64,000 bases of DNA from Tubulanus polymorphus (Eukaryota > Animalia > Nemertea), in the NCBI RefSeq assembly GCF_964204645.1, contig NC_134036.1, positions 5,300,600 through 5,364,599 on the forward strand, written 5' to 3'. How positions within the stretch are numbered: position 1 is the first letter of the stretch; the number at the start of each line of letters is the position of its first letter. Of the stretch, positions 5,749-64,000 are shown piece by piece. Under the pieces are notes generated by a model, which saw only the letters and a program-made list of their open reading frames with translations, was not told where the DNA came from and ran no database searches. Position numbers and translations under genes: made by a program.

Positions 5749-5795
<47 letters not shown>

Positions 5796-13956: not shown

Positions 13957-16900
13957 ATGTTGTTCGGTATGGAGCAGCGACTGAGAGCGCTGTTTATAGC
14001 GTCGCTGATCGTCTGTCAAGTTCGCATCGCTTGCGCTGATCGCGCAGACTCTATCGAGGAATCGTCTGTGACGGTAAGTTCGTCTTGTAACAACACGTGG
14101 TACCCGCTAGATTCTACGTCCGGTTACATCGTTTCACCGAATTACCCTTCGTTGACGCTCGGTGTTGAATGTCGTTGGTTCGTCGACAGCTCTTTACCGG
14201 GAACGTTTCACGTCCAGGTTTACTACGACATTGAGCCATCATTATTCTGCAATGATAACTATATTCTCGTCCATGAGTCTGGTAACCGATTGTGCGGTTA
14301 TGGTAAACCTGAAATCCAACGTAACGATTCGATCTCGTTGATGTTTAGGAGTAACGTCGATGGTACGCGAGGTAGTCGGCTTTATGTCGTATATCGATAT
14401 GATCGAAGTCGATTGAAGATCAGCCACGGATGCGGGATAAGGGATTTTCAAGTTAATGAATTGAAAACATCGACCGGGTACAAATTCACGATGTTCTTTC
14501 ATAATGGATGTCAGCTGTTCGTCGAATGGATCGGCATCCCGGATGGTTTGGCGATTAATGTAACCTTTGTTGATTTGGACCTTAAACTATTTCCTCGCGC
14601 TGATGTCGATCCAGCGGCGAGTTTTCGAATCTATGATGGCTGGAACAGTAGCAGTGAACCGATAGCAATCATAGGCGTACAGAGCGGACAACAGCCGTCA
14701 TCGTTTTATACCAAAACTAACAAAGCAATGATTTCTGCGTCAGGGCAACGCGAAACGACGACTAAACTTATGTTTCAAATGTATGAAATATCAGATTGGA
14801 ACGTATCTAATCCGTTGTTTCAGATCTCTAATAACGAGTCGGGAGTGCTCATTCCCGATGACAACAGTTTACACGTAATAACTCGATCAAAACACTTACA
14901 CTGCTGGTCTATCACAGTGCAGGTGTTACAGTACGTCGTCTTCAACTGGACACGTGATCTCAGCACATCCGGTGACGTCATTGGTGTATATAAACAAGAA
15001 GGGTTACGTGTTGTAGGAACTGATATTTTACTCGGTTACAACCACCTGGAATCACTGAGTGTCAAATCTGACGGATTTCTCGTCATACTGTGCGTCCTAA
15101 CGAGACCGTACATCACAGAATCGAATACGAGAATAGGCTTCAGAGTAATATCAATATCGATGTCAAAATTGCGCATCACTAAACTCAGGGTAAGTGTCAA
15201 ATTATACATGCTCTTTAATGCAAGCCTCGACGAGTGATATTTGCATCTATGATATACAATTGGTAATATAAATTAATCTTACCCACAAATCGCATACATT
15301 TAGATATTTGGCAAACTAAAAACGGCGTCGCTGGCATACTACTTGCTGCTACCAGCTCCAACGAGGACTTTGAGGTATCGTGTAAATATGTACGAGTTCA
15401 AATGGAAAGTTGAAATCTACGAGAGCGACCTTCAATTAACGGTGCTGTCTGTGAATTGCGAGCGAGCTGGATTTTACATATACGACGGTGGTAATTTCAC
15501 GGCTAGACGATACGGTCCGTATTGTCCCGGTTTATCGGGTTATGTACGAAGTGTCGTCAGTCTGATAACATCAGGTGGACCGGTTATCGTAGTTGGATAT
15601 AATTATAACTGTCAGAGAAAGCGGATAGCAAGTGGCTCTTTAGATTTACGTGCGACTGAATGTGACAGTTTTACTCTACGGGAAGGAGAACACCAGGTGA
15701 CAGTGCAGACGTCGAACTGTTTCAGGATTACACCCGAAAACCGAGTTCGATTACATAGAGTGTACGTATTTTCAAAGCACGAATATGAAATTGGTGGGTG
15801 CACGCCGGATTATACGGAACCTCTCAGGAGATGTAGATTTTTCATGTCTCTCAGTATTCAGCGTCTCAATAACAGTGTCATACTGCACACTGTGACGTTC
15901 AGATGGACTAATTTGTTCTGGAGACTCCCGTTTATCGTTGAGTTGCGGCGCAGTTGCCAAACATTAATCCAGACTAACTCAAACATTGGCTGGATCGACA
16001 GGCGGAAAGGAGGCGACTGTGGAATCGTGCAGTCACCGAATTACCCTAGATCTGCCGGAACTTCAACTGTTACATTAAAATACAGAATAAAGTTCTGGGC
16101 GACCGCAACCCGGATTCAGTTCTACCGATTTGTCATCAAAAGCATGGAAAAGACGTCGTGTATGAAAGAATCCCGAGACAAACTGGAATCCGTCTTGTTT
16201 ATCCAGGAACTGAGTTATAAATCCACTTTTAGGAGCGCTGCCCGAAAAACAATAAAACTATGCGACAAGTTTGCTGAGCCTGGAATTACGTTTTACAGTT
16301 TACTTGAAATATGGATGTGGTTCGAGGTGAAAAACCGAATACCCAAATTTAAGATACAATACGTTTTAGAGCAGTTACCGGTAAAACCGTTAAGAAATGT
16401 CTGTAAATCTGGATTCCTAGATTCGGGAATTTCATGCGTCAAATATATCAGAGATGAACGCCTGAATTGGGAGAATGCTGAATTGTACTGTAGACAGAAG
16501 TACGCGGGACATCTACTCAGCATCAACTCAGAACAGGAGATGATTTCTGTAAAAACATTATTCGCTACGAAACCTTTGATTGTCGAGGCGTATTCACAGA
16601 AAGCGCTCATAATGATGATTGGATTAAAGATACAGGTATGTGGAACAGCACGTCCTAACCCCAACCCGGTATTCGTTGCATTAAAAACAAAACAAAGTCT
16701 GTCGGCTGGCTCGTTTTTCAAGTTTTTCAAGATTTTCATGTTTGTATTCATAGTCGACGACTGGTTATAATTGTGAATTGTACGCATTGCTAATTGACCG
16801 TATTTATCTTTTCAGCTTGCAACTGGTTACTACCGGTGGACTGATGGGAAACCATTGAGCTACACAGAGTGGTATAAACCTACAAATAACGACACGATAC

Positions 16901-19900
16901 CAGAAGTTATTGAAGGATTGATATCTCCTCTCAGAAAACAACCCATAAATGACGTCAATATGCCGTGTACGGCGATGATACTGAATAATCCACGAGGATC
17001 AGCGAACTGGGTTCGATTCCCCTGCGAAATCGAAGAGGTTCACACGGGTTTCATTTGTGAAACGGAAAGAGATGATTACGAAAATGCAACAGTTAAAACG
17101 TTAAATATAACCAAAAACAACACAATTCTGATACGTAAAAAATTACAATTTTTGGAAACTGGGTTCAATGACGCGAGCTGTGTGTTTGGTTGGGTAAGCA
17201 TAAATAAACAATGCTATCAAATACTGACGGACTGGAACAAACATCAAGGTTTAGATATGATAACGGCGACGGAGATGTGTGACGAAATCCGAGGCAAAAT
17301 AGCCACCGTTATAACCAGTTACACAGAAAACGAAACAATGAACTTGATATCAAAATTTAACTTTCAACATCAATATAGCTCCATACTTTTTATGACATAT
17401 AATGACCGACCACTAGTTTTAAAACCAATAATCACTAGAGATGACATTACTTATGTCAAATCAGTTAAATGGATAATGAAACAGTTTGATAATGCGAAAG
17501 ATACAGCGCATTCTGTTTTGTGTTCGTACAATGTAACTGGTGAAGAGTTAGCTTCTATAAGCGGTTGTAAATCGTGGCAGTTTAAATGTAACGATCAAAG
17601 ATGTATCAGCGACCATCGCGTATGTGATACCAGACACGACTGTCAATACGGTGAGGATGAACTCAATTGTACGGATATTAATTTGCACAGCCAGTTTTAT
17701 TGCAATGATGGTCAGGTTATATCAATAAGTGGTTTCTGTGATTTCATACAAGATTGTGCGGATGGTTCTGATGAGAACTCGTGTTTTCACCCCCCGTGTT
17801 TGTCCGAACAATTTCGGTGCATAAGTGGTCAATGTGTCAGTAGGTCTTACAGATGCGATGGAGTCACTAATTGTAAAGACGGCTCAGATGAAATCGGTTG
17901 CACTTCTGGACAATGTCAAGGGTTCCTGTGTAAGAGTGGAGATTGTATCAGTTCTCAGTTTTATCATGATGGTGTCGTGGATTGTAGTGGAAGCCTCGAA
18001 GAAGATGAATTAGTATTAGCTACCAATGTTACAGTGAATCCTACGATCCATTGTAATTATGAAAACCACTGTACGACTAACTTCACAAATCTATGTACGG
18101 AATCTGATGAACAAAGATGTTCTTTTAATTCTCTTCATTGTTATTCAAGACGTCACAGATGTATTCTAGAAAGAATGACTAATGGTTTCCCAGTTTGTAG
18201 AAATCTTGAACACGTATTGAGATGTGAAGAATTTGAATGTCCGGCTAGTACTGTAAAATGCCCAGCCTCGTACTGTATACCGATCAGACAGGTGTGCGAT
18301 GGTCAATCGGATTGTCCTAATTCAGAAGATGAGCAAAACTGCGAGACATTTTCATGTCCAGGAATGTATAAATGTGGCCACGAAAATAGGTGCATTACAC
18401 AATCTGAAGTTTGCGATGGTGTCGTAAATTGTAAATATACAACTGATGACGAGGCTTTCTGTAACGTCACCTGCCTGAGAGGTTGTAAGTGTCAAGGTCA
18501 TCTGACCGAGTGTAGAAATACTGGTTTAACAAACATTACCGGTCTTTTCTCGGCTTCAACTCGAGTTTTAATTTTGTCGAATAACGAAATTACCTTAGAC
18601 ATGTCGACATTCCTTTCATACATCTATTTGCGCATGCTCAACATCTCCGACAATGAATTGTCTCATATTTTACCTAAATCGTTCTCAAACCTGCATAATC
18701 TACATACATTAGATCTTACACACAACAACATAACATCATTATCTGCAAAAACATTCATCGGTTTGTATAGTTTGAAAGAATTATTGATTACTGAAAATCC
18801 GATAGTTCATTTACAGGACGATACCTTCCAAGATTTGAAGTCACTTAAAGTTCTCGACCTTCATGAACTTTCGTTGTTGGTGCTTGGTAGAAACGTATTT
18901 CGAGGTTTATCTACATTACAGTCGTTGAATATCAGCAATAACAGAATCCATCATATTTCGCTTTACGCATTTTCTGGATTAACTTCACTTGAAATTCTTG
19001 ATATAACCAACAACTACAAAGTTATTTCTGTCGACAGAAATGTTTTCAACAATCTGACATCATTGGTCTCCTTAAAGTCTGATGCTTACAAATTTTGCTG
19101 CATGGCTCCGAATGTTGACCAGTGCCTTCCGGAAGCTGATCAATTTTCCTCGTGTTCTGATCTGATGGGTAACACAGTCCTCAGAGCTATCATTTGGGTG
19201 ATCGCTTCATTCAGTTCCATCGCTAACGGAATTGTCATTTCACTTCGCATTCGATCGATTCGATTTTCCTCCTCAAATCCATCTTCAGATATCATCATCA
19301 TTAATGTTGCTGTGTGTGATTTCATAATGTCTATATATTTGTTTCTGATCGCTGGAGCCGATTACAATTATTCTGGCATTTACTTTCTCAATTCGGAATT
19401 ATGGATGGATAGTCCATTTTGTTGTCTTGCTGGGATCACGGTGTCTATTTCTTGTGAAGGTTCATTGATATTTTTGCTCATCATGACACGTCATAGGTTC
19501 GCAAATATCGTTAATCCATTTTCAGGAAGTGCAATTTCATCTCCTAGATATGTGTGCGCTATTTGTTGCACATCTTGGATTATTTTGTGTGCTATTGCAT
19601 TGCTACCTCTAACACCTATCCCTTACTTCGGAAACAATTTTTACGGTACAACCGGAGTTTGTTTACCGATGAATTTACTTTCAATTGAAGTCAATGCCTG
19701 GCAATATTCATTAGCTATTTTTTCATTATCCAACTCATTCATACTCACTACGATAATGGCAACGTATGTACAAATGTACAGACTCGTATCTGGAAGTAGG
19801 TCTGGTTCGGGTAGAATTGACCCTACAGAACTAGTTTTAGCACGTAGGAGTTTGGTGATAAATCTGTGTAATCTATTTTGCTGGCTGCCGTTAATCATCG

Positions 19901-20076
19901 TTCAGTTTTGCGCGGTATTACGGGTGGAAATACCGAATCAGGTGGCGGCTTGGCTGGCGGTTCTTTTCTTACCGATCAACTCGTCCCTCAATCCCCTTCT
20001 TTACACAATACTGACTATCGATATGAAATCCATACGAGCAAAAACTAAACGCACGCAACATCGAACAGATAAATGA
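13957..20076 (+). CDS. GRL101: GRL101-like LDLa-LRR GPCR with N-terminal CUB and C-type lectin domains, copy 1 (type A), ~1941 aa
   Basis: Exons 13957-15189, 15304-16635 and 16816-20076; introns AGG|GTAAGT...TAG and CAG|GTATGT...TTTCAG, both phase 0 and in frame. Signal peptide; CUB motifs (SGYIVSPNYP, IYDG, CGIVQSPNYP); CTL (LNWENAELYC...MIGL...WTDG...FICE); LDLa repeats (CDxxxDCxDGSDE); LRRs; hinge KFCC...FSSCSDLM; 7TM ending PINSSLNPLLY. The symbol denotes family resemblance, not proven orthology. Confidence 0.9.
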
Positions 20077-22375: not shown

Positions 22376-22418
22376 TATTGCTATACATAGCCTGCTTTTC
22401 TTTTCTGCAGTGTGCTCA

Positions 22419-27008: not shown

Positions 27009-30000
27009 ATGTTGTTCGGTATGGAGCAGCTACTGAGAGCGCTGTTTATAACGTCGCTGATCGTCTGTCAAGTTCGCATCACGCGCGCTGATCGCGCAGA
27101 CTCTATCGAGGAATCGTCTGTGACGGTAAGTTCGTCTTGTAACGACACGTGGTACCCGCTAGATTCTACGTCCGGTTACATCGTTTCACCGAATTACCCT
27201 TCGTTTACGCGCGGTGTTGAATGTCGTTGGTTCATCAACAGCCTTTTACCTAAGACTTTCAACGTCCAACTTTACCTCGACATCGAGCAGTCAATATTCT
27301 GTAGTGATAACTACCTTCTCGACCAAGAGTCTGATAACAGATTGTGCGGTGATGGAAAACATGAAATCCGCCGTAACGACTCGATCTCGTTGATGTTTAG
27401 AAGTAAAGTCGACGGTGCGCGAGGTAGTCGGGTTTTTGTCACATATCGTTATGAACGAAACCGATTGAGAATCAGTCATAACTGCAGGAAATATAATTGC
27501 GATTTGAATAAATTGCAAACGTCGAAGGGATATAAATACAAAATAAAAAGGCTAGTGGGTTGTCGGTTGTACCTGGAATGGATCGGGATGCCTGATGGTT
27601 TTGCACTTAACTTGACTTTTACAAAATTAGATTACAGAATATCCTCATTCATTGCACCAATAACAGTCAACGACGGATCGAACATCAGCAGTGAACCTAT
27701 AGGTATTATACGAGAACAAACCGGATATCCACCTTCGTCATTTTATACTAAAACAAATAAAGCCATAATCTCGTCGCTACATCGCCCAAGGGTCTTTCTA
27801 GCACAGCTTTTAGTTCAGAAGTACAAAATATCAGATTGGAACGTCTCTAATCCGTTGATTCATATCTCTAATAACGAATCGGGAGTGCTTATACCCGATG
27901 ATAACAGTTTACACGTAATAACTCGATCAAAACACTTACACTGCTGGTCTATCCCAGTGCAGGTGTTACAGTACGTCGTCTTCAACTGGACACGTGATCT
28001 AGTCTCGTCCGGTGACGTCATCGGTGTATATAAACTAGAAGGGTTACGCGTTGTAGGAACTGATATCTTACTCGGATACAACTACCTGGAATCACTGAGT
28101 GTCAAATCTGACGGCTTTCTTGTTGTACTATGCGCTCTGAAAGCAACACTTCACGATAATGTAACATTTGAAATAAACTATAGAAAAGAATTTATTTCGA
28201 TGGAGAATATAAAGGTCTACAACCCTCGGGTGAGTTAAATTCGTGAAATTATTTTACCCCGTATCAAAATAATTTAAGTCAACAAATATGTATGATGCAC
28301 TTAAAATGGGCTTTTTATGTCTAGGTATCGGTGAAAGCAATGTGGTCTATGACGCAGTCCATGCTGTTTCCAAGACGAACAAAGCTCTATTTGAATTATC
28401 GCGTCACTAGATACAAGTTGAAATGGAAAACTGAGATTTATGAGGAGAATATGGAACTAACAGTTTTATCAGAGAACTGCGAGCGAGCTGGATTTTACAT
28501 ATTCGACGGTGGTAATTTCACGGCTAGACGATACGGTCCGTATTGTCCTCGTTTAAAGACATACGACAGTAACGTCGTCAGTTTCATTACGTCAGGTGGA
28601 TCTGTTACTGTAGTAGGATACGCTTATAACTGGGACGATCAGTTAACAGTCGAAACGGCATCGCGCCTCAGATTTCGTACTACCGACTGTGACGGGTATG
28701 TTTTAAAAGAGGGAGAACGTCAGATCAATGTATCGTCTGACTGCGTCTCGATTACACCTGAAAACCGACGCCTTCCTCTAAAAAACATTTACATTTGGTC
28801 CAAACACGGATATGTACTTGATTCTTGTATTATCGATAAAAGATTCGCGACCGATAGATGCATGTTTCGACTGAAACTCCAGTCTACCAATAACGGACTT
28901 GTTTTACAAACGGTGGATTTTAAGCTAGTAAGACCCTTCCGCGTGGAGCCGTTGTTTGTGAAACTACGCCGTGAATGTATGGCCTTGAAAAAGCCCGATA
29001 AGCCTACAGATATGACCGGGCAAACACCGGAATGCGGGTTAGTGCAGTCAATGAACTATCCCGGACCAGAATTCTACGGATCAGTCCGTAGAGAATACAC
29101 TTTAGAATTCAGGACTAATCAGTTACAGATTCGATTTTACAGATTCGTTTTCAAGTACATTCAGGTAATACCCTGCGAGAAATCATCCAGGAGGGGTGCG
29201 GATCCTATTTTGTTCATACAGAATACATATTATTACATAACAACCGTGCGTGTAGAGACTCAACACACAACCACAATATGCGGTAAAATGGCCGTATTGG
29301 GAACTGTATTTTATAGCTTGCATCACAAGATGCACCGGTTTCAGGTGGAAAATAATATACCCACATTTCAAATACAATACACCGTTATACGGTCTTTACT
29401 AGCCACACAGTTTGAAAATGTCTGTAAATCCGGATTTCTAGATTCGGGAATTTCATGCGTAAAATACATCAGAGATGAACGTTTGAATTGGGAGAATGCT
29501 GAATTGTACTGTAGACAGAAGTACGCGGGACATCTACTCAGTATCAACTCACAACAGGAACTGATTCACATTAAGATATTATTCGCTACAAAGTTTCTTC
29601 AAGAGGCATATTCACAGAAAGCGCTCATTATGATGATCGGATTAAAACTGCAGGTAAATTTCAAAACCGTTCGTAAGTTCTATGTTTGTAAATAAAATGT
29701 TAGTTCCGGAAATTTATGCTTTTTTGTTTCGTAGCCCAATACCGATTATTACACGTGGTCAGATGGGAAACCATTAAGCTACACAGAGTGGTATAAACCT
29801 ACAAATAACGACACGATACCAGAAGTTATTCAAGGATTGATATCTCCTCTCAGAAAACAACCGATCAATGACGTCAATATGCCGTGCACAGCGATGATAC
29901 TGAATAATCCACGAGGATCAGCGAACTGGGTTCGATTCCCCTGCAAAATCGAAGAGGTTCACACGAGTTTCATCTGTGAAACAGACATAATCGATATCGA

Positions 30001-32974
30001 AAATAGAACATCTAGCACGATAAATTCAACAAACAATGGCAAATCTTTGATACGGGAAAACATGTCGAAAGAAAGTAGTTGCACGGTTGGATGGTTAGGT
30101 ATGAATAAACAATGCTATCAAATACTGACAGACTGGAACAATCATCGAGGTTTAGATATAAAAACTGCGACAAGGATGTGTCGAGACATCCGGGGTGAAA
30201 TAGGCGCGATAACAGGTTACACAGAAAAGAAAACATTGAACTTGATAAGAACATTTCAATATCAACATCAATATGGTTCTATACTAACGATGACTCCTGA
30301 TGACAGACTGCATGTTATAAACCCAATAATCACTAGAGATGAAATTACCTATATTCAATCAGTCAAATGGACGATGAAACAGTTTGATAATGCGACAGAT
30401 ACAGCGCATTCTGTTTTGTGTTCGTACAATGTAACTGATGAAGAGTTAGCTTCTATAAGCGGTTGTAAATCGTGGCAGTTTAAATGTAACGATCAAAGGT
30501 GTATCAGCGACCATCGCGTATGTGATACCAGACATGACTGTCAGCACGGTGAAGATGAACTCAATTGTACGGATATCAATTTACACAGTCAGTTTCAATG
30601 CAAAGATGGTCAGATTATATCAATAAGTGGATTCTGTGATTTCATACAAGATTGTGCGGATGGTTCCGACGAAAAATCGTGTTTTCATCCCCCGTGTTTG
30701 TCCGGAGAATTCCGCTGTATCAGTGGTCAATGCGTCATCAGGTCAAACAGATGTGACGGTGTTACTAATTGTAAAGACGGATCAGATGAAATCGAATGCA
30801 CTGCTGAAATGTGTCAGGGGTTTCTGTGTAACAGTGGAGACTGTCTTAGTTCTCAGTTGTATCAGGATGGTGTCGTGGATTGTAGTGGAAGCCTCGAAGA
30901 AGATGAATTAGTAACAACTACTAATGTTACAGTGAATCCTACTGTTCGTTGTAATAATGAAAACGACTGCACGACTAACTTCACAAATCTCTGTACAGAA
31001 TCTGATGAACAAAGGTGTTCTTTCGAATCTCCTCATTGTTATTCGAGACGTCACAGATGTATTCTAGAAAGAATGACGAATGGTTTCCCAGTTTGTAGAA
31101 ATCTTGAGCACGTGTTGAGATGTGAAGAATTTGAATGTCCAGCTGGCACTGTCAAATGTCCAGCATCGTACTGTATACCAATCAGAAAGGTGTGCGATGG
31201 TCGATCAGATTGTCTCAATTCAGAAGATGAACAAAACTGTGAGACTCTTTCATGTTCGGGAATGTTTAAATGCGTCAACGAAAACCGATGTATTCCACAA
31301 TCTGAAGTTTGCGATGGCGTCATACATTGTAAACATTCAACTGATGACGAGGCTTTCTGTAACGTGAAATGTCGTGAAGGTTGTTACTGTCAAGGTCATA
31401 TGATCGATTGTAGAAATACCGGTTTAACGAACATTACCGGTCTTTTCTCAGCCTCAACTCGAGTTTTGATTTTATCAAATAATGAATTAACCTTAGAAAC
31501 GTCGACATTCTTTTCATATGTATATTTGCGCATGATCAACATCTCCTTTACCAGATTGTCTTATTTATTACCAAACTCGTTCTCAAACTTGCATAATCTT
31601 CATACATTGGACCTGACATACAACAACATAACATCATTACCCGCAAATACATTCACTGGTCTGTATAGTTTGAGAGAGTTATTCATAACTGAAAATCCGT
31701 TGCGTCAATTAGAGGATGATACATTCCGAGATTTGAAGTCCCTGAAAAATCTCGACCTACACGGACTTAGGTTGTTGGTGCTTGATAGTAATGTATTTCG
31801 AGGTTTATCTACATTACAGTCGTTGAATATCAGCAATAACAGAATCCATCATATTTCGCTTTACGCATTTTCTGGATTAACTTCACTTGAAATTCTTGAT
31901 ATTACCAACAACTACAAAGTTATTTCTGTCGACCGAAATATTTTAATTAATCTTAATTCATTGGTCTCCCTTATTTCTGACGATTACAAATTTTGCTGCA
32001 TGGCTCCAAACATTGACTACTGCCTTCCCGAAGCTGATCAATTTTCCTCATGTTCTGATCTGATGGGTAACACAGTCCTCAGAGCTATCATTTGGGTCAT
32101 CGCTTCATTCAGTTTTATCGCTAACGGAATTGTCATTTCTCTTCGTATTCAAGCGATACGATTTTCCCCCTCAAATCTCTCTTCAGACATCATCATCATT
32201 AATGTTGCTTTGTGTGATTTTATGATGTCTATTTATTTGTTTCTGATCGCTGGAGCCGATTATCTTTATAAAGATGATTACTTTCTCTATTCCGAATCAT
32301 GGACAGACAGTTTGTTTTGTCGTCTTGCTGGGATCACGGTGTCTATTTCATGTGAAGGTTCATTGATGTTTTTGCTCATCATGACACGTCATAGGTTCAC
32401 GAATATCTTTAATCCATTTTCAGGAAGTGCAATTACATCTACGAAATATGTGTGTATTATTTGTTGTACATGTTGGATTGTCTTGTGTGTCATTGTATTA
32501 GTACCTCTCACACCTTTCCCTTACTTTGGAGACAATTTCTACGGCACGACCGGAGTTTGTTTACCGATGAATTTGATTTCAATCGATGTGAATGCCTGGC
32601 AATATTCTTTCGCTATTTTTGCTATGTTTAACTCTGGCATACTTGCAACGATAATGGCGACTTATGCGCAAATGTACAGACTCGTATCTGGAAGCAGGTC
32701 TGTTTCTGGTAGAGTTGATCCTACCGAACTGATTCTGGCGCGCAGGAGTTTGGTGATAAATCTGTGTAATCTATTTTGCTGGCTGCCGTTAATAACCGTT
32801 CAGTTTTGCGCGGTATTTCGGGTGGAAATACCGAATCAGGTGGCGGCTTGGCTGGCGGTTCTTTTCTTACCGATCAACTCGTCCCTCAATCCCCTTCTTT
32901 ACACAATACTGACTATCGATATGAAGTCCATACGAGCAAAAACAAAACGCAGGCAACATCGAACGAATAAATGA
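27009..32974 (+). CDS. GRL101: GRL101-like CUB-CTL-LDLa-LRR GPCR, copy 2 (type B), ~1929 aa
   Basis: Exons 27009-28229, 28325-29653 and 29735-32974; phase-0 GT-AG introns of 95 and 81 nt join the three ORFs in frame; same domain series as copy 1. Confidence 0.9.
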
Positions 32975-47991: not shown

Positions 47992-50900
47992 ATGTTGTTC
48001 GGTGTGGAGCAGCGCCTGAGAGCGCTGTTTATTTCGTCGCTGATCGTCTGTCAAATTCGCATCGCGCGCGCTGATCGCGCAGACTCTATCGAGGAATCGT
48101 CTGTGACGGTAAGTTCGTCTTGTAACAATACGTGGTACCCGCTAGATTTTACGTCCGGTTACATCGTTTCACCGAATTACCCGTCGTTCACGCGCGGTGT
48201 TGAATGTCGTTGGTTCATCAACAGTTCTTTACCAGGAACTTTCTTCATCCAAACGAAATTCGATATCGAGCCGTCAATATTCTGTAGTGATAATTACTTC
48301 CTCGTCTACGAGTCTGATAACAGATTCTGTGGTGATGGAAAACATGAAATTCGCCGTAACGAATCGATCTCGTTGATGTTTAAGAGTAACGTCGATGGCG
48401 CACGAGGTAGTCGGGTTTATGTCATATATCGTTATGATCGAAGTCGATTGAGAATCAGCCACGGATGCGGGATCTGGAATTTTAAAGTGCACGAATTGGA
48501 AACATCGACCGGATACAAATTCACGATGTTCTTTCATCGCGGATGTCAGCTGTTCGTCGAATGGAACGGCATCCCGGATGGTTTTGCTATGAATTTCACA
48601 TTCGTTGATCTGGACCTTAAACTATATTATTTCGGTGGCGTCGATCCAGCGGTGAATTTTCGTATCTATGAAGGCTGGAACATCAGCAGTGAGCCGATAG
48701 CGCTTATAGGTGCACAGAGCGGACAACAGCCGTCATCGTTTTATACCAAAACAAACAAGGCATTGCTTTATGTGTTAAATCAACGCAAAACAACGACTGA
48801 ACTTTTAGTACAAATTTATAAAATATCAGATTGGAACGTATCTAATCCGTTGGTTCAGATCTCTAATAACAAGTCGGGAGTGCTCATTCCCGATGACAAC
48901 AGTTTACACGTAATAACTCGATCGAAACACCTACACTGCTGGTCTATCACAGTGCAGGTGTTACAGTACGTCGTCTTCAACTGGACACGTGATCTCGTCA
49001 TATCCAGTGACGTCATCGGTGTATATAAGTTAGAAGCGTTGCGCGTTGTAGGAACTGATATTTTACTCGGTTACAACTACCTGGAATCACTGAGTGTTAA
49101 ATCTGACGGCTTTCTCGTCATACTGTGTGTTTTAACGAGACCGAACATCACGGAATCGATTCTAAGGATAGACTTCAGAATGAAATCAATATCGATGTCT
49201 AAATTGCGCATCATTCTACCCAGAGTAGGTATCAGATCATTGATGCACTCATATTTACACTCCATCGACGGAGATTCGCAGCTATGATTTCTAATGAAAT
49301 GAATTATTCTTTTGCTCAAATATATAGATAGACAACAGATTAAAACTGTCTACGAAGTCGATGGCATTTTTTTCGCTGCTTCCATTTCCGACAAGGAAGT
49401 TGAATTATCGCGTCAACCTGTACAGATTCAAATGGAAAGTCGAAATCTACGACAGCGATCTACAATTGAAAATGGTGTCTGTGAATTGTGAAAATACCGG
49501 ATACTACATATACGACGGTGGTAATTTCACGGCTAGACGATACGGTCCGTATTGTCCTGGTTCATCGGGTTATCGACGAAGTGTCGTCAGTCTGATTACA
49601 TCAGGCGGCCCGGTCATCGTAGTAGGCTATATTTATAACAGTCGAAGCAAGCAACGGATGGCCAGCGGATCTTTAAAGTTACGTCCGACCGACTGTGACG
49701 GTTATACTCTGCGCGAAGGAGAAAACCGGGTAACAATGCCGCAGACGCCACGCTGTTTCAGGATTACACCAGAAAACCGAGCAGTTTTACTACATAAAAT
49801 TCACATATTATCACAGCGCGAATTTGAGATCAGCGGATGCAGGCGCGATAACAGAACATCGCGCACAGCATGTAGATATCAAATGGTTCTCAGTATTCAG
49901 CGTCTTAACAACAGTCTCGTACTGCACACTGTCGCATTTCGGAGGGCGGATTTCTTCTGGATAAGACCGTACTTCGTCGAATTGCGGCGCATTTGCCAAA
50001 CATTGAGAAAACATGCAGTAATATCTGACTGGTGGGAGCGAACTGAAGGCGATTGCGGAATCGTGCAGTCACCAAACTACCCAGGGTCATCTAACCCGTT
50101 ATCCGTTACGTTGGAATACTGGATCGAATTCCAAAATGTTCTGACCCGAATTCACTTTTACCGATTCGTCATCAAAACAATGGAAAAGACGTCTTGTATT
50201 AAAGAATCCAGATACAAACTGGAGTCCGTCGCGTTCGTCCAGGAAGTAAGTTACCAGAGCCGCACAGCCCGACACGTAATCAAACTGTGCGAAACGTTTG
50301 CCGAACCGGGAGTTACGTTTTACAGTTATATGAATATTAAGATGCGCATCGAGGTGAAAAACCGAGTACCCAAATTTCGCATACAGTACGTACTAGAGGA
50401 ACAGTTACCAATAAAACAGATTGAAAATGTCTGTAAAACGGGATATATTGATACGGGAATCACTTGCGTAAAACACATCAGCGATAAACGTCTAAATTGG
50501 GAGAATGCTGAATTGTATTGTAGACACAAATACGCGGGACATCTACTCAGTATAAACTCACAACAGGAAATAATGTCTATTAAAATATTATTCTCTACAA
50601 GGCCGCTCATCTTAGATGTGTATTCGCAGAAAGCGTTCATAATGATGATTGGGTTAAAACTGCAGGTACAGTACTGTATTCTAGCCCATAACCTAAACTG
50701 TACATAGAACACATTCGTAAATGTCCGAGGGTTACATTTTCAGCTTGTAAATGGTTATTACACGTGGACTGATGGAAAACCATTGAGCTACACAGAGTGG
50801 TATCAACCTACAAATAACGACACGATACCAGAAGTAATTCAAGGATTGATATCTCCTCTCAGAAAACAACCGATAAATGACGTCAATATGCCGTGTACGG

Positions 50901-53900
50901 CGATGATATTGAATAATCCACGAGGATCAGCGAACTGGGTTCGATTCCCCTGCGGAATCGAAGAGGTTCACACGAGTTTCATTTGCGAATCGGACAGAAT
51001 AAGTGTCAAAAATTTAACTGAGAGAGAAAGCAACTCAACCAATAAGGCGTCATCCGAAACTAATAAACAACACATTTTTAATTATAATACAGTAAATGCA
51101 ACTTGTACAATGGGTTGGTTAGGTATAGCTGGGAAATGTTACCAAATACTGACAGATTGGAACAAAAACCGAAGTTTAGATATTGGGAAATCAAGAAAAC
51201 TGTGTCATGGAATCCGCGGTGAAGTCGGTTTGATACAGGATCTGATGCACCTTCAAATATTGATTGGTAGATTTAATTATCGGCACCACTATGGCGCTAT
51301 TCTAACTATCGGTTTTTGGAATCAATGGTTGAAAATAAAACCGTTTGTTACCAGGGATGAAATTACTTATAATCATTCGACTAATTGGGCATTGATACCG
51401 TGGCATAATCAATCAGATACAGTGCATTCTGTTTTGTGTTCATACAATGTAACTGATGAAGAGTTAGCTTCTATAAGCGGTTGTAAATCGTGGCAGTTTA
51501 AATGTAACGATCAAAGATGTATCAGTGACCATCGCGTATGTGATACCAGACACGACTGTCGACACGGTGAAGATGAACTTAATTGTACAGATATTAATTT
51601 ACACAGTCAGTTTCAATGCAATTATGGACAGATTATATCAGTTAGTGGTTTCTGTGATTTCATACAGGATTGTGTGGATGGTTCTGATGAAAACGCATGT
51701 TTTCATCCTCCGTGTTTGTCCGAACAATTTCGCTGCCAAAATGGTCAATGTATCAGTATTTCTAAGAGATGCGATGGATTCACTGATTGTAAAGACGGCT
51801 CCGATGAAATTGGATGCACTTCTCAAATGTGTCAAGGATTCCTGTGTAACAGTGGAGACTGTATCAGTTCTCAGTTGTATCAGGATGGTGTCGTAGATTG
51901 CAGTGGAAGCCTCGAAGAAGATGAATTAGTAACAGCTACTAATGTTTCAGTGAATCCTACTGTTTATTGCAACAATAGGAACCACTGTACGACTAACTTC
52001 ACTAATTACTGCATTGAATCTGATGAACAAAGATGTTCTTTCAATTCTCCTCATTGTTATTCAAGACGTCACAGATGTATTCTAGAAAGAATGACGAATG
52101 GTTACCCAGTTTGTCGAAATCTCGAGCACGTGTTAAGATGTGAAGATTTTGAATGTCCAGCTGGTACTGTAAAATGTCCAGCATCGTACTGTATACCGAT
52201 CAGACAGGTGTGCGATGGTCAATCAGATTGTCCTAATTCAGAAGATGAACAAAACTGCGAGACGTTTTCATGTCCGGGAATGTTTAAATGTGGCCACGAA
52301 AATCGATGTATCCCACAATTTGAAGTTTGCGATGGTGTCATAACTTGTAAACATAAAACTGATGACGAGGCTTTCTGTAACGTAACCTGCCGTGAAGGTT
52401 GTGTGTGTCAAGGTTATTTGATCGATTGCCGAAATGCTGGTTTAACAAATATTACTGATCTTTTCTCGGCATCAACTCGAGTTTTAGTTTTGTCGAATAA
52501 CGAAATTACCTTAGACATGTCGACATTCCTTTCATATAACTATTTGCGCATGCTCAACATCTCTTCCAATGAATTGTCTAATATTTTACCTAAATCGTTC
52601 TCAAACCTGCATAATCTACAGACATTAGATCTTACACGCAACGACATCACATCATTATCTGCAAATACATTCATCGGGTTGAATAATTTGAAAGAGTTAT
52701 TGATTACTGAAAATCCAATACGTCATTTGGAGGACGAAACCTTCCAAGATTTGAAGTCACTTAAAGTTCTCGACCTCCACGAACTTTCGTTGTTGGTGCT
52801 TGGTAGAAACGTATTTCGAGGTTTATCTACATTACAGTCGTTGAATATCAGCTATAACAGAATCCATCATATTTCGCTTTACGCATTTTCTGGATTAACT
52901 TCACTTGAAATTCTTGATATAACCAACAACTTAAAAGTTATTTCTGTCGACAGAAATGTTTTCCACAATCTGACAGCATTGGTCTCCGTAAAGTCTGATG
53001 CTTACAAATTTTGCTGCATGGCTCCGAATGTTGACCAGTGCCTTCCGGAAGCTGACCAATTTTCCTCCTGTTCCGATCTGATGGGTAACACAGTCCTCAG
53101 AGCTATCATTTGGGTCATCGCTTCATTCAGTTTTATCGCTAACGGAATTGTCATTTCTCTTCGCATTCGAGCGATTCGATTCTCCTCCTCAAATCCTTCT
53201 TCAGACATCATCATCATTAATATCGCTGTGTGTGATTTTATGATGTCTATATATTTATTTGTGATCGCTGGGGCTGATTATACTTATAAAGGTATCTACT
53301 TTCTCAATTCAGAATCATGGACGGACAGTGCATTTTGTCGTCTAGCTGGAGTCGTGGTCACTATTTCTTGTGAAGGTTCGTTAATATTTTTGCTCATCAT
53401 GACACGTCATAGATTCTCAATTATAGTTAATCCATTTTCTGGGAGCCCGATTACATCTCCGAGATATGTGTGCATCATTTGTTGCACATGTTGGATCGTT
53501 TTGTGTGTTATTGCATCGCTACCTCTTACATCTATCTCTTACTTTGGGGACAATTTCTATGGCAGAACTGGAGTTTGTTTACCAATGAATTTAATTTCAA
53601 TTGACGTCAACGCCTGGCAATATTCATTCGCTATTTTTTCATTATCCAACTCATTCATACTCGCTACGATAATGGCGACTTATACGCAATTGTACCGACT
53701 CGTATCTGGAAGTAGGTCTGGCTCGGGTCGAATTGACCCTACAGAACTAGTTTTGGCACGCAGGAGTTTGGTGATAAATCTTTGCAATTTATTTTGCTGG
53801 CTGCCGTTAATTATCGTTCAGTTTTGCGTGGTATTTCGGGTAGAAATACCGAATCAGGTGGCGGCTTGGCTGGCGGTTCTTTTCTTACCGATCAACTCGT

Positions 53901-53992
53901 CCCTCAATCCCCTTCTTTACACAATACTGACTATCGATATGAAATCCATACGAGCAAAAACTAAACGCAGGCAACAACGAACGGATAAATGA
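47992..53992 (+). CDS. GRL101: GRL101-like CUB-CTL-LDLa-LRR GPCR, copy 4 (type A), ~1939 aa
   Basis: Exons 47992-49224, 49328-50665 and 50744-53992; phase-0 introns AGA|GTAGGT...TATAG and CAG|GTACAG...TTTCAG join in frame; N-terminal CUB region resembles copy 1. Confidence 0.88.
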
Positions 53993-58984: not shown

Positions 58985-61900
58985 ATGTTGTTCGGTATGG
59001 AGCAGCGACTGAGAGCGCTGTTTATAGCGTCGCTGATCGTCTGTCAAGTTCGCATCGCGCGCGCTGATCGCGTAGACTCTATCGAGGAATCGTCTGTGAC
59101 GGTAAGTTCGTCTTGTAACAACACGTGGTACCCCGTAGATTCCACGTCCGGTTACATCATTTCACCGAATTACCCGTCGTTAACGCGCGGTGTTGAATGT
59201 CGTTGGTTCATCAACAGCTCTTTACCTAAGACTTTCAACGTCCAAGTTTACTACGACATCGAGCCGTCAATATTCGGTAGTGATAACTACCTTCTCGTCT
59301 ACGAGTCTGATTACAGATTGTGCGGTGATGGAAAACATGAAATCCGCCGTAACGATTCGATCTCGTTGATTTTTAGGAGTCATGTCGATGGTGCGCGAGG
59401 TAGTAGGGTTTATATCACATATCGTTATGAACGAAGCCGATTGAGAATCAGTCATAACTGCAGGAAATATAATTGCGATTTGAATAAATTGCAAACGTCG
59501 AAGGGATACAAATACAAAATAAAAAGGCTAGTGGGTTGTCGGTTGTACCTGGAATGGATCGGGATGCCCGATGGTTGTGCTCTTAACTTGACTTTTACAA
59601 AATTAGATTACAGAATATCCTCTCTTATTGCACCAATAACAGTCAACGATGGATGGAACATCAGCAGTGAACCTATTCGTATTATACGAGAACAAAGCGG
59701 ATATCCAGCTTTTTCATTTTATACTAAAACAAATAAAGCCATAATCTCGTCGCTACATCGCCCAAGGGTGTTTCGATCACAGCTTTTAGTTCAGAAGTAC
59801 AAAATATCAGATTGGAACGTCTCTAATCCGTTGATTCAGATCTCTAATAACGAGTCGGGAGTGCTCATTCCCGATGCCAACAGTTTACACGTAATAACTA
59901 TATCAAAACACTTACACTGCTGGTCTATCACAGTGCAGGTGTTACAGTACGTCGTTTTCAACTGGACACGTGATCTCGTCACATCCGGTGACGTCATCGG
60001 TGTATATAAACAAGAAGGGTTACGCGTTGTGGAAACTGATATTTTACTCGGATACAACTACCTGGAATCACTGAGTCTCAAATCTGACGGTTTTCTTGTT
60101 GTACTATGCGCTCTGAAAGCAAAACTTCACGATAATGAAACATTTGAAATAAACTATGAAATCGAATTTATTTCGATGGAGAATATCAAGGTCTACAACC
60201 CTCGGGTGAGTTAAATTCGTGAAATTATTTAACTCCGTATGAAAATAATTTAAGTCAACAAATATGTATGATGCACTTAAAATGGGCTTTTTTATAACTA
60301 GGTACCGGGGAACGCAATGTGGTCTATGACGCCGTCCATGCTGTTTCCAAGAAGAACAAAGCTCCATTTAAATTATCGCATCACTAGATACGAGTTTAAT
60401 GGGAAAGTTGATATTTATGAAGAGAATATGGAACTAACAGTTTTATCAGAGAACTGCGAGCGAGCTGGATTTTACATATTCGACGGTGGTAATTTCACGG
60501 CTAGACGATACGGTCCATATTGTCCTCGTTTATGGAGATACGGCCGTAACGTCGTCAGTCTGATTACATCAGGTGGATCGGTTACTGTAGTAGGATACGC
60601 TTATAACTGGGATGATCAGTTAACAGTCGATAAGGATTCGCGCCTAGGATTTCGTGCTACCGACTGTGACGGGTATGTTCTAAAGGAAGGAGAACGTCAG
60701 ATCAATGTGACGTCTGACTGCATCTCGATAACACCTGAAAACCGACGCCTCCCGTTAAAAAACATTTACATTTGGTCCAAACACGAATATCGAGTTGATT
60801 CTTGTATTATCGATAAAAGATTCGCGACCGATAGATGCATGTTTCGACTGAACCTCCAGTTTACCAATAACGGACTTGTTTTACAAACGGTGGATTTTAG
60901 GCTCGTAAGACCCTTCCGCGTGGAGCCGTTGTTTGTGAAACTACGCCGTAAATGTATGGCATTGAAAAAGCCCGATAAGCTTACAGATACTACCTGGCAA
61001 ACACCGGAATGCGGGTTAGTGCAGTCAATGAACTATCCCGGATCAGCGCCATACCAGTCAGAACGTAAAACATACAATTTAGAATTCAGACCTAATCCGT
61101 TGCAGATTCGATTTTACAGATTCGTTTTCAAATACATTCAGGTAATACCCTGCGAGAAATCATCCTTGGGGGACAAAGATCATATTTTGTTTATACAGAT
61201 AATGCATTATTTCATAACAACCGGGCGAATTGTAGAGACTCAATACACGACAACAATATGCGGTAAAATGGCCATATTGGGAACTGTTTTTTATAGCCTG
61301 TCCAATTCGAGGCTGAGTTTTCAGGTGGAAAATAATATACCAACCTTTCAAATACAATACACGGTTATTCATTCATTATTAGAGAAACAGATGAAAAATG
61401 TCTGTAAATCGGGATTTCTAGATTCGGGAATTTCATGCGTAAAATACATCAGAGATAAACGTCTGAATTGGGAGAATGCAGAATTGTATTGTAGACAGAA
61501 GTACTCGGGACATCTACTCAGTATCAACTCAGAACGGAAAATGATTAATATAAAAACATTATTCGCAACAAAGTTTCTTCAACAGGCATATTCACAAAAA
61601 GCGCTCATAGTGATGATTGGGTTAAAACTGCAGGTAAGTTTGAAACACCGTTCGTAAGTTCTAAGTTTGTAAATATAATGTTAGTTCCGGAAGTTTATTC
61701 TTTCTTTGTTTCGTAGCCCAATACCGGTTATTACACGTGGTCTGATGGGAAACCATTGAGCTTCACAGAGTGGTATAAACCTACAAATAACGACACGATA
61801 CCAGAAGTTATTCGAGGATTGATATCTCCTCTCAGAAAACAACCCATAAATGACGTCAATATGCTGTGTACGGCGATGATACTGAATAATCCACGAGGAT

Positions 61901-64000
61901 CAGCGAACTGGGTTCGATTCCCCTGCAAAATCGAAGAGGTTCACACGAGTTTCATCTGTGAAACAGAAAGAACCGATATCGAAAATAGAACATTTAGAAC
62001 GATGAGTTCAACAAAAAATAACAAATCTTTGATACGGGAAAACATGTCAAAAGATAATAGTTGCACGGTTGGATGGTTACGTATGAATAAACAATGCTAT
62101 CAAATACTGACAGACTGGAAAAATCATCGAGGTTTGGATATAAAAATTGCAACTGAGATGTGTCGAGACATCCGAGGTGAAATAGGCGAGATATTAACTG
62201 GTTACACAGAAAAGAAAACTTCGAACTTGATAAGAACATTTCAATATCAACATCAATATAGCTCTATCCTAACGATGGCATCTAATGACCGACTGCAAGT
62301 TATAAACCCAATAATCACTAGAGATGAAATTACTTATATTAAATCAGTCAAATGGACGACGAAACAGTTCGATAATGCGACAGATACAGCGCATTCTGTT
62401 TTGTGTTCCTACAATGTAACTGTTGAAGAGTTAGCTTCTGTAAGCGGTTGTAAATCGTGGCAGTTTAAATGTAACGATCAAAGGTGTATCAGCGACCAAC
62501 GCGTATGTGATACCAGACACGACTGTCAACACGGTGAAGATGAACTCAATTGTACGGATATCAATTTACACAGTCAGTTTCAATGCAAAGATAGTCAGAT
62601 TATATCAATAAGTGGATTCTGTGATTTCATACAAGATTGTGCGGATGGTTCCGACGAGAAATCGTGTTTTCATCCCCCGTGTTTGTCCGGAGAATTCCGC
62701 TGTATCAGTGGTCAATGCGTCATCAGGTCAAACAGATGTGACGGTGTTGCTAATTGTAAAGACGGATCAGATGAAATCGAATGCATTGCTGAAATGTGTC
62801 AGGGGTTTCTGTGTAACAGTGGAGACTGTCTTAGTTCTCAGTTGTATCAGGATGGTGTCGTGGATTGTAGTGGAAGCCTTGAAGAAGATGAATTAGTAAC
62901 AACTATTAATTTTACAGTGAATCCTACTGTTCTTTGTAATACTGAAAACGACTGTACGACTAACTTCACAAATCTCTGTACAGAATCTGATGAACAAAGA
63001 TGTTCTTTCGATTCTCCTCACTGTTATTCTAGACGTCACAGATGTATTCTAGAAAGAATGACGAATACTTTCCCAGTTTGTAGAAATCTTGAGCACGTAT
63101 TGAGATGTGAAGAATTCGAATGTCCAGCTGGTACTGTAAAATGCCCAGCATCGTACTGTATCCCGATCAGACAGGTGTGCGATGGTCAGTCGGATTGTCC
63201 TAATTCAGAAGATGAGCAAAACTGCGAGACATTTTCATGTCCAGGAATGTTTAAATGTGGCAACGAAAATAGATGTATTACACAATCTGAAGTTTGCGAT
63301 GGTGTCGTAAATTGTAAATATACAACTGATGACGAGGCTTTCTGTAACGTCACCTGTCTGAGAGGTTGTAAGTGTCAAGGTCATCTGACCGAGTGTAGAA
63401 ATACTGGTTTAACAAACATTACCGGTCTTTTCTCGGCATCAACTCGAGTTTTAATTTTGTCGAATAACGAAATTACCTTAGACATGTCGACATTCCTTTC
63501 ATATATCTATTTGCGCATGCTCAACATCTCCGCCAATGAATTGTCTTATATTTCACCTAAATCGTTCTCAAACCTGCATAATCTACATACATTAGATCTT
63601 ACACACAACAACATAACATCATTACCTGCAAAAACATTCATCGGTTTGTATAGTTTGAAAGAGTTATTGATTACTGAAAATCCAATACGTCATTTACACG
63701 ATGATACCTTCCAAGATTTGAAGTCACTTAAAGTTCTCGACCTTCACGAACTTTCGTTGTTGGTGCTTGGTAGAAACGTATTTCGAGGTTTATCTACATT
63801 ACAGTCGTTGAATATCAGCAATAACAGAATCCATCATATTTCGCTTTACGCATTTTCTGGATTAACTTCACTTGAAATTCTTGATATAACCAACAACTAC
63901 AAAGTTATTTCTGTCGACAGAAATGTTTTCAACAATCTGACATCATTGGTCTCCTTAAAGTCTGATGCTCACAAATTTTGCTGCATGTCTCCGAATGTTG
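58985..64000 (+). CDS. GRL101: GRL101-like CUB-CTL-LDLa-LRR GPCR, copy 5 (type B N-terminus), truncated by the window edge before the 7TM
   Basis: Exons 58985-60205, 60302-61633 and 61717->64000. Exon 3 reads in frame to the edge (...SDAHKFCCMSPNV) and is absent from the ORF track because no stop lies in the window. Confidence 0.88.

What the first reader, a model, noticed from the sequence alone, without database searches (positions are those of the whole stretch)
13957..64000. Tandem array of five giant multi-domain GPCRs (CUBn-CTL-LDLa-LRR-7TM)
Seen: five same-strand paralogs with starts spaced 13.1, 11.4, 9.5 and 11.0 kb apart, each splicing into a ~1,930-1,940-aa receptor with a ~1,640-aa ectodomain. 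Established: canonical GRL101 has LDLa repeats, LRRs and 7TM; CUB and C-type lectin modules are typical of innate-immune, endocytic and gamete-recognition proteins. Inference: about 1,000 extra N-terminal residues of CUB-like and CTL domains, local expansion and divergence concentrated in the ectodomain suggest a lineage-specific sensor repertoire rather than a single hormone receptor. The array may continue beyond the window.
Basis: partly seen in the sequence, partly recalled or inferred. Interest (0 to 1): 0.75.

Follow-up and report, generated by a model that had tools for sequence, protein, structure and literature searches.

The report
Recombining array of giant GRL101-like receptors
Five side-by-side copies of a giant relaxin-receptor-like GPCR gene, likely from a ribbon worm, share conserved signalling parts but carry swapped, highly divergent outer modules, so they likely act as a diversified set of sensors for outside proteins, as proposed for similar clusters in snails.

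Summary
The array is real: five same-strand, three-exon paralogs at the stated spacing, with GT-AG phase-0 introns. Three are intact (1,929-1,941 aa), copy C is frameshifted and copy E is cut by the window. They are type C2 LGRs (LDLa-LRR-7TM; RXFP1 is the closest solved receptor), with the hinge and ECL2 activation motifs kept. The closest named relative is from the nemertean Tubulanus polymorphus (73-75% identity). The CUB-CTL-LDLa-LRR-7TM layout is not new: database proteins of molluscs, an annelid, a starfish and hemichordates have it. Tandem 'GRL101' clusters are published for snails. Only one CUB domain is firm, two more are weak, and the lectin domain has lost its sugar-binding residues. 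New here: the copies are recombination mosaics. Conserved blocks alternate with cassettes only 35-44% identical, and copy E switches type at its LRRs. dN/dS is below 1, so positive selection is not shown. Read depth suggests tens of further copies. The best reading is a diversified sensor repertoire, chemosensory more likely than immune. Splicing and expression were not seen in RNA.

The parts
13957..15189 (+). Copy A exon 1: likely signal peptide, CUB1 (about 14086-14406), CUB-like N2 and segment N3
15304..16635 (+). Copy A exon 2: variable segments N4-N5, CUB-like N6 (about 15991-16395), first half of C-type lectin domain CTL1
16816..20076 (+). Copy A exon 3: second half of CTL1, degenerate CTL-like unit (read by eye), six LDLa units around a Cys-rich middle module, LRRNT and about seven LRRs, hinge, 7TM (about 19180-20010), 23-aa tail; spliced product 1,941 aa
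27009..28229 (+). Copy B exon 1
28325..29653 (+). Copy B exon 2
29735..32974 (+). Copy B exon 3; spliced product 1,929 aa, intact
38453..39661 (+). Copy C exon 1 (first ATG lost, second ATG used)
39758..41087 (+). Copy C exon 2 with a one-base frameshifting insertion near 40895 (pseudogene, null allele or assembly error)
41172..44408 (+). Copy C exon 3, open frame with 7TM
47992..49224 (+). Copy D exon 1
49328..50665 (+). Copy D exon 2
50744..53992 (+). Copy D exon 3 with a distinct CTL-like unit (38-45% identical to the others); spliced product 1,939 aa, intact
58985..60205 (+). Copy E exon 1
60302..61633 (+). Copy E exon 2
61717..64000 (+). Copy E exon 3, cut by the window end at the hinge
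63000..63150 (+). Recombination switch in copy E: B/C-type upstream, A-type downstream (best breakpoint about 63130, A residue 1333)
13878..13909 (+). Paired CCAAT boxes at -79 and -52 from the ATG, kept in A, B, D and E; C keeps one (promoter role inferred)

Best explanation
This is a tandem array of type C2 (GRL101-like) LRR-GPCR paralogs, three intact, one frameshifted and one cut by the window, whose ectodomains are recombination mosaics; they likely serve as a sensor repertoire for outside protein cues and are predicted to signal like the relaxin receptor. Shown: the domain order, the kept hinge, ECL2, TM6 and TM7 motifs, purifying selection, and alternating conserved and deeply divergent blocks. 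Inferred: a ligand binds the variable CUB-like, CTL-like and LRR modules; this lifts LRR/hinge autoinhibition; ECL2 then acts as a tethered agonist for a G protein. Inferred: unequal crossing-over and gene conversion between the conserved blocks swap the cassettes, and copies are born and lost. Expression in epidermal or sensory cells (chemoreception) is the most likely role, by analogy only.
For: RXFP1 is the best solved 7TM match (E 1.2e-49; next TSHR 1.7e-26). The hinge (DQFSSCSDLM against RXFP1 DGISSLENLL), the ECL2 C-phi-P-phi motif (CLPM), CWLP and NPxxY are kept in 4 of 4 copies with a 7TM. The RXFP1 mechanism is from bioRxiv 10.1101/2022.01.22.477343 (passages). Whole-gene dN/dS is 0.32-0.42 in 10 of 10 pairs. 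Mosaic: PHI-like 0.157 against 0.230 +/- 0.0035, 0 of 2000 permutations; max-chi2 362 against at most 17.5 in 300 permutations. AU tests give opposite topologies on either side of the switch. The A/D versus B/C/E branch runs 0.002, 0.54, 0.025, 0.69 and 0.027 along the ectodomain. DNA reads of a near-identical organism give depth about 24 in the lowest flank bin, about 50 in variable cassettes and 500-1,250 in conserved blocks (run X5). Expanded tandem GRL101 genes are expressed in apple-snail tentacles and palps (PMC6573481, passages). Tentacle-specific or tentacle-biased GRL101 is reported in Charonia and Acanthaster.
Against: No RNA shows splicing, tissue or inducibility. Which GRL101 lineage the sensory-organ papers studied was not checked. 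No positive selection was found (pooled regional dN/dS 0.09-0.58). The acidic residue of the E/DRY motif is replaced (H, Y), so coupling may be atypical. Most of the variable N-terminus has no confident fold. The published cluster most like this one is tied to parasite resistance, not sensing. A mosaic could in part be assembly chimerism, though E differs from A at 24 of 870 nt after the switch.
Confidence: 0.5

Rival explanations
1. The array is an immune or non-self recognition repertoire, with the same receptor mechanism but with parasite or microbe proteins as ligands.
For: Biomphalaria sudanica SudRes2 holds 12 clustered GRL101-like genes (10 with CTL, LDL and LRR), with presence/absence differences between haplotypes, and is associated with schistosome resistance (PMC12297450, passages). 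GRL101 genes appear in differential-expression tables of resistant snails (PMC13619432, passages). Deep, long-kept cassette types and shuffling are typical of recognition loci (recalled).
Against: The top SudRes2 variants lie in a Zn-RING-IAP gene, not in a GRL101. CTL1 has lost the canonical sugar site and is conserved between copies (78-91%), not variable. No induction data exist here.
Confidence: 0.25
2. They are redundant duplicates of an endocrine receptor for an insulin-like peptide, and the ectodomain diversity is drift under relaxed constraint plus patchy gene conversion.
For: Type C receptors bind relaxin-like peptides, and GRL101 proper is proposed as an IGF receptor (PMC8286064, passages). 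dN/dS is below 1 in all pooled regions and copy C is broken. The AU test does not reject grouping with canonical GRL101 (p 0.28).
Against: Canonical GRL101 is single-copy in the ambulacrarians studied and forms its own 100/100 clade without these genes. CTL1 matches 13 of 13 CUB/CTL-type relatives and 0 of 6 canonical ones; the middle module matches 9 of 13 and 0 of 6. Tens of copies are implied.
Confidence: 0.15
3. Exons 1-2 form a separate secreted CUB protein, or the giant third exon is expressed alone, so the 1,930-aa receptor does not exist.
For: No spliced read was seen (none of the laid runs is on record as RNA). SudRes2 genes were annotated as single ORFs of about 3.4-3.5 kb without CUB (supplementary Data 7, rows seen). 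No database protein of 721-2,055 aa matched exon 1 (0 of 4,707 candidates; weak evidence by the tool's note).
Against: CTL1 is split by intron 2. Relatives align continuously from their last CUB through the CTL across it (P0005 E 1.5e-11, P0008 E 2.9e-9). RefSeq model P0121 joins at the same point. 10 of 10 introns are short, GT-AG and phase 0; intron 1 has no poly(A) signal in 5 of 5 copies; exon 3's first Met lies inside the CTL.
Confidence: 0.07
4. The array is largely an assembly artefact (uncollapsed haplotypes or chimeric joins).
For: The organism appears very polymorphic (share of words at most 0.44) and one copy has a one-base frameshift.
Against: Copies are only 67-87% identical as proteins with dS 0.19-0.62, and they carry different transposon insertions in their flanks. 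Independent DNA runs cover 30 of 30 bins of the A-B stretch.
Confidence: 0.03

Closest known systems
SudRes2 GRL101-like cluster of Biomphalaria sudanica (PMC12297450)
   Same: Dense tandem cluster of CTL-LDLa-LRR-7TM receptors, mostly missed by automatic annotation, with truncated and haplotype-specific copies. Its ORFs (1,098-1,229 aa in the rows seen) match the size and content of this array's exon 3 (about 1,080 aa).
   Different: No CUB is listed for the GRL101 rows seen (all 7 IPR000859 rows are other genes). Genes are tens of kb apart. Snail relatives sit on a separate branch of the 7TM tree. Cassette mosaics were not described in the passages seen.
Lymnaea GRL101 / arthropod LGR5 (canonical type C2 LGR)
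   Same: Multiple LDLa units, LRRs, hinge and an RXFP-like 7TM.
   Different: Canonical GRL101 has about 12 LDLa units, no CUB or CTL, and is single-copy where studied. Its orthologues form a clade that excludes these genes (100/100), although the AU test is not significant.
Unnamed CUB-CTL type C2 LGRs in databases (Haliotis P0005, Solemya P0012, Dimorphilus P0008, Acanthaster P0006, Saccoglossus P0002, Glandiceps P0130, Larinioides P0119, Lingula P0241/P0125)
   Same: Same core order CUB-CTL-LDLa-middle module-LDLa-LRR-7TM. Lingula also shares the lost sugar motif and the short tail.
   Different: The long forms keep QPD and W[HNQ]D in the CTL (8 of 8), have canonical CUBs, often F5/8, kringle or ApeC domains, and carry a 104-676-aa tail with a kinase-like stretch. 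The window copies have about 770 aa of degenerate CUB-like sequence and a 22-23-aa tail.
Apple-snail GRL101 expansion (PMC6573481)
   Same: Lineage-specific tandem expansion (29-132 genes; 9 tightly clustered on one scaffold).
   Different: Expression data exist there. Its domain layout and lineage were not given in the passages seen, and its supplement returned no hit for GRL101 or CUB.
Human RXFP1 (PDB 7tmw)
   Same: Closest solved 7TM; hinge, ECL2 motif and TM3 cysteine align.
   Different: One LDLa, a known peptide ligand and no N-terminal extension; E3.49 is kept in RXFP1 and replaced here.

Membership tests
Type C LGR (rhodopsin-class LRR GPCR with LDLa) | Rhodopsin-family 7TM closest to relaxin receptors | tested here: met
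   7tm_1 in 4 of 5 third exons (E cut); RXFP1 best PDB match, E 1.2e-49
Type C LGR (rhodopsin-class LRR GPCR with LDLa) | LRRs followed by a Cys-rich hinge, with LDLa N-terminal of the LRRs | tested here: met
   LRR_8 and Ldl_recept_a in 5 of 5; hinge motif in 4 of 4 complete copies
Type C LGR (rhodopsin-class LRR GPCR with LDLa) | ECL2 C-phi-P-phi motif | tested here: met
   CLPM in 4 of 4; motif defined in the paper read
Type C2 (GRL101-type) | Multiple LDLa repeats | tested here: met
   Pfam 4-5 stretches per copy; six units by eye in the alignment
Type C2 (GRL101-type) | 7TM groups with GRL101-type rather than RXFP/LGR3/LGR4 | tested here: inconclusive
   The trees held no type C1 sequence, so C1 against C2 was not tested by phylogeny. 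The best full-length hits are GRL101-like
Canonical GRL101/LGR5 orthogroup | About 12 LDLa units at the N-terminus, no CUB or CTL | tested here: not met
   Six LDLa units preceded by about 1,100 aa with CUB and CTL
Canonical GRL101/LGR5 orthogroup | Nests in the canonical clade | tested here: inconclusive
   Outside the 7-row canonical clade (100/100), but AU p 0.28 for holding them together; stem branch 1.4
CUB-CTL type C2 lineage (unnamed) | CTL and Cys-rich middle module shared with the long forms, absent from canonical GRL101 | tested here: met
   CTL1 13 of 13 against 0 of 6; middle module 9 of 13 at domain E<0.01 against 0 of 6
CUB-CTL type C2 lineage (unnamed) | Kinase-like cytoplasmic tail | tested here: not met
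   22-23-aa tails; a tail profile finds nothing in six frames of the window
Calcium-dependent sugar-binding C-type lectin | EPN or QPD plus WND-type motif (motif meaning recalled) | tested here: not met
   QPI and WVR in 5 of 5 copies; QPD and W[HNQ]D in 8 of 8 long relatives
Tandem multi-CUB array (CUBn) | Several CUB folds in series | tested here: inconclusive
   CUB1 firm. N2 62% and N6 79% by hhalign, with HMM scores near shuffles; N6 also aligns with relatives' last CUB. Atlas 0.94 and 0.89 to CUB clusters. Both folds failed
Chemosensory or immune receptor repertoire | Expression in sensory or immune cells and an outside ligand | not testable with these tools
   No RNA holder listed; needs bench work

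The most novel reading that the evidence does not exclude
These genes reveal a second, unnamed pan-bilaterian type C2 LGR lineage (CUB-CTL-LDLa-LRR-7TM, ancestrally with a sugar-binding CTL and a kinase-like tail). It has repeatedly become intron-poor and expanded into recognition arrays. Here tens of copies shuffle interchangeable ectodomain cassettes between conserved blocks, giving a combinatorial GPCR repertoire. The snail SudRes2 single-ORF 'GRL101' genes would then be last exons of longer receptors whose variable CUB-like exons are still unannotated.
Probability: 0.3. Interest if true: 0.7.

Novelty: new variant of a known kind. Interest (0 to 1): 0.45.

Why it matters
GRL101-like receptors are orphans, variously called hormone, smell or immune receptors from BLAST labels. 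This array shows that the expanded ones likely belong to a CUB-CTL lineage separate from GRL101 proper. It also shows that their diversity is organised as swappable cassettes. That gives defined natural chimeras (copy E against A and B) for mapping which module sets ligand specificity. It predicts missed upstream exons at the schistosome-resistance locus SudRes2. It is not a new kind of system: clusters of such receptors are already published.

Tried and rejected
No whole genome was held, so there is no direct copy count. The run search listed no RNA holder: no evidence either way. Of 7 different runs laid (X5 twice), X7 and X6 laid nothing, and X1, X2, X3 and X5 behave as DNA (contig pieces across intron 1 or in flanks). 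One X4 joint (41017-41181) brackets intron 2, but the letters between are unknown and X4 also covers intergenic DNA, so it was not counted as splicing. Frameshift check: 292 of about 338 X5 reads at 40893-40895 lack the extra base, but most come from paralogs and another individual, so it is inconclusive. AlphaFold2 failed on exon 1 (pLDDT 31.8) and on the exon 2 alignment (27.6), so no fold search was run. The representative-protein search was never run. Exon 1 against longer proteins: none of 4,707 candidates. JGI metagenome scan: 7 pattern hits, none confirmed. The CUB HMM from 34 relatives' domains scored N2 and N6 at 0.6-7.1 bits against a shuffle maximum of 5.1. Exon 1 against exon 2 profile: probability 1%. 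The CTL-like second unit did not match relatives, so it rests on reading by eye. The careful 51-row tree did not finish; the quick tree is cited (2 of 49 relatives dropped for short coverage), then a careful tree on 25 chosen rows without long branches and without copy C. The script ended in an error after the cited output. Rfam: 0 matches. 12 intergenic ORFs: no Pfam match above cut-off. Earlier scan findings: none in three look-ups. Positive selection was considered and not supported. A fourth exon with a kinase-like tail was sought and not found. Paper searches that found no description of a CUB-CTL-LDLa-LRR-7TM family: (listings only, except the papers opened; subscription journals are not held).
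Full report
Observation. The six-frame ORF list shows five repeats of three long ORFs on the + strand. Gene models built from the splice sites start at 13957, 27009, 38453, 47992 and 58985, spaced 13,052, 11,444, 9,539 and 10,993 nt. All 10 introns are GT-AG, phase 0 and 78-180 nt long. All 10 contain in-frame stops, and 3 of 10 are not multiples of three. Copies A, B and D give 1,941, 1,929 and 1,939 aa without stops. Copy C has one extra base near 40895 and stops at residue 788; it also lacks the first ATG and one of two upstream CCAAT boxes. Copy E runs off the window in the hinge. No further copy lies in the first 13.9 kb. The duplicated unit includes about 1.2 kb upstream and several kb downstream (self-BLAST).

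Anatomy (copy A numbering). A hydrophobic N-terminus (residues 9-27) is read as a signal peptide. CUB1 (about 44-150) matches Pfam in 5 of 5 copies, above the cut-off in 4 of 5, and matches cubilin in the PDB. Of five further N-terminal segments, N2 and N6 are CUB-like at 62% and 79% hhalign probability, and N3-N5 score under 3%. N6 also aligns in line with the last CUB and the CTL of Haliotis and Dimorphilus relatives across intron 2. Atlas features point to CUB for both exons, at weak strength. Two AlphaFold jobs failed. So 'CUBn' means one firm, two likely and up to three unproven units. CTL1 (776-937) is split by intron 2. It is followed by a degenerate CTL-like unit (by eye), four LDLa units, a Cys-rich middle module, two LDLa units, LRRNT, about seven LRRs, the hinge, the 7TM from about 1,645, and a 22-23-aa tail.

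Family. RXFP1 is the best solved 7TM match (E 1.2e-49). The closest named protein is RefSeq XP_074658304.1 of the nemertean Tubulanus polymorphus. It is 73-75% identical over 683-684 aligned residues, is a partial model, and joins exons at the position of intron 2. The window is therefore likely from a Tubulanus-like ribbon worm (inference). Pfam finds CUB, Lectin_C, LDLa, LRR and 7tm_1 together in 7 of 13 relatives chosen for scanning: Haliotis, Solemya, Dimorphilus, Acanthaster, Saccoglossus, Glandiceps and an unnamed record. Lingula P0241 has the same order with a weak CUB. In a 25-row 7TM tree the seven canonical GRL101/LGR5 orthologues form a 100/100 clade without the window genes, which sit with Tubulanus P0121 on a long stem. 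The AU test rejects neither a link to canonical GRL101 (p 0.28) nor one to the Lingula group (p 0.50). The ectodomain is clearer: CTL1 matches 13 of 13 CUB/CTL-type relatives and 0 of 6 canonical ones, and the middle module matches 9 of 13 and 0 of 6. No type C1 sequence was in the trees.

Derived features. The long relatives keep QPD and W[HNQ]D in the CTL (8 of 8). The window copies (0 of 5) and the Lingula and ENA forms (0 of 3) do not. By recalled lectin rules, CTL1 here is unlikely to bind sugar at the canonical calcium site. The long relatives also carry 104-676-aa tails with a shared kinase-like stretch (Pfam kinase hits in P0002 and P0130); the window has none. The acidic residue of E/DRY is H or Y here and Q in P0121, against D/E-R in 38 of 46 other rows. 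The hinge, CLPM, CWLP and NPxxY motifs are intact.

Evolution within the array. Whole-gene dN/dS is 0.32-0.42 in 10 of 10 pairs, and pooled regional values are 0.09-0.58. The genes are under purifying selection and positive selection is not shown. Divergence is patchy. Between A/D and B/C/E, N5-N6 are 35-44% identical with near-saturated dS, while across all pairs CUB1 is 76-85%, CTL1 78-91%, LDLa 83-97% and the 7TM 84-90% identical. The internal branch alternates 0.002, 0.54, 0.025, 0.69 and 0.027 along the ectodomain, and D alone has a distinct CTL-like unit. Recombination is strongly supported: 579 informative sites, PHI-like 0.157 against 0.230, 0 of 2000 permutations. Copy E shares 788 B-like against 120 A-like sites before A residue 1333 and 111 A-like against 14 B-like after it. 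AU tests favour opposite trees on the two sides. After the switch E still differs from A at 24 of 870 nt, which argues against a simple assembly collapse.

Copy number. DNA reads of a near-identical organism (run X5, 90% likeness) give total depth about 24 in the lowest flank bin, about 50 in N6, 544 at the end of exon 1, 1,250 in the LDLa block and about 500 at the end of the 7TM. If the lowest bin is single-copy, conserved blocks occur in about 20-50 copies and the cassettes in about two. If it is not, there are more: with a 310-360 Mb genome as measured for T. polymorphus (PMC8468679, passages), single-copy depth would be about 6. The reads are not from the window's own individual as far as I can tell, so this is a rough lower bound.

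Mechanism. By homology with RXFP1 (bioRxiv 10.1101/2022.01.22.477343, passages), the LRRs and hinge would hold ECL2 inactive, and ligand binding would release it as a tethered agonist. This step is inferred from kept motifs. Specificity would lie in the variable CUB-like, CTL-like and LRR modules, reshuffled by exchange between conserved blocks (the exchange is shown, its function is inferred). I put a sensory role for outside protein cues at 0.5, immunity at 0.25, redundant hormone receptors at 0.15, separate transcripts at 0.07 and artefact at 0.03.

What is known. Tandem GRL101 expansions with tentacle and palp expression are published for apple snails (PMC6573481, passages; its supplement gave no hit). 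Tentacle expression is reported in Charonia (PMC13403566, passages) and Acanthaster (PMC6267866, passages). A 12-gene GRL101-like cluster, 10 of them with CTL, LDL and LRR, lies in a schistosome-resistance region of Biomphalaria sudanica (PMC12297450, passages). The rows of its supplementary Data 7 that I saw are single ORFs of 1,098-1,229 aa with no CUB listed, though one RefSeq orthologue spans 9.4 kb (one scanned PDF could not be searched). Canonical GRL101 is an orphan type C2 receptor, proposed to bind IGF (PMC8286064, PMC11863921, PMC4079206; passages). Ciona has its own LDLa-GPCR expansion (PMC2396169, passages). The nemertean GPCR survey left out LRR-GPCRs (PMC8557429, passages). PMC2246102 reports CUB and lectin domains only on adhesion GPCRs in the passages seen, and PMC11521371 gave nothing relevant. 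Eight searches found no paper describing a CUB-CTL-LDLa-LRR-7TM family; the library lacks most subscription journals.

Verdict. This is a real array and a new variant of a known kind. The layout is widespread in databases, and clustered expansion is published. The long degenerate CUB-like extension, the cassette mosaic and the separation from canonical GRL101 are what a specialist would find worth following. Interest 0.45.

Noticed in passing
window 20613-22383: A 1.77-kb element with about 590-nt terminal inverted repeats (94-95% alike) inserted behind copy A; the empty site (20617 to 22377) is seen in runs X1 and X5. Likely a non-autonomous DNA transposon; its ORFs have no Pfam match above cut-off.
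   Followed up: partly
window 45492-46147: High-copy interspersed repeat between copies C and D (X5 depth about 2,000-4,000 against about 24 nearby).
   Followed up: no
window 22416-22531 and 33565-33680: Short hairpin element with 29-nt arms in the 3' flanks of A and B, with many loose read ends at the first site, so probably mobile.
   Followed up: no
window 5080-6689 and 11065-12646: Diverged direct duplicate (74-84%) with no Pfam match in the ORFs tested.
   Followed up: partly
window 7860-8173 and 9961-10298: Small elements with nested inverted repeats, MITE-like.
   Followed up: no
window 1919-2206: Tandem array of a 44-nt unit, about 6.4 copies.
   Followed up: no
proteins P0002, P0005, P0006, P0008, P0012, P0119, P0130, P0131, C-terminal tails: The long CUB-CTL relatives from five phyla and one unnamed record share a kinase-like stretch behind the 7TM (Pfam kinase hits in two of them): a class A GPCR with a pseudokinase-like tail that I found no paper on, though I did not search for it directly.
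   Followed up: partly
proteins P0122-P0127 (unnamed ENA records): ORFs of 1,050-1,130 aa; the three inspected start inside the CTL like this array's exon 3, which suggests the same giant last exon in other animals.
   Followed up: partly
protein P0121 (XP_074658304.1): The only Tubulanus relative among the 240 hits listed is a 689-aa model with large gaps against the window proteins, probably false introns; automatic annotation seems to miss or mangle this family.
   Followed up: partly
window 16680 and 29691: Possible poly(A) hexamers inside intron 2 of copies A and B; could allow a secreted short form, but may be chance in AT-rich DNA.
   Followed up: no
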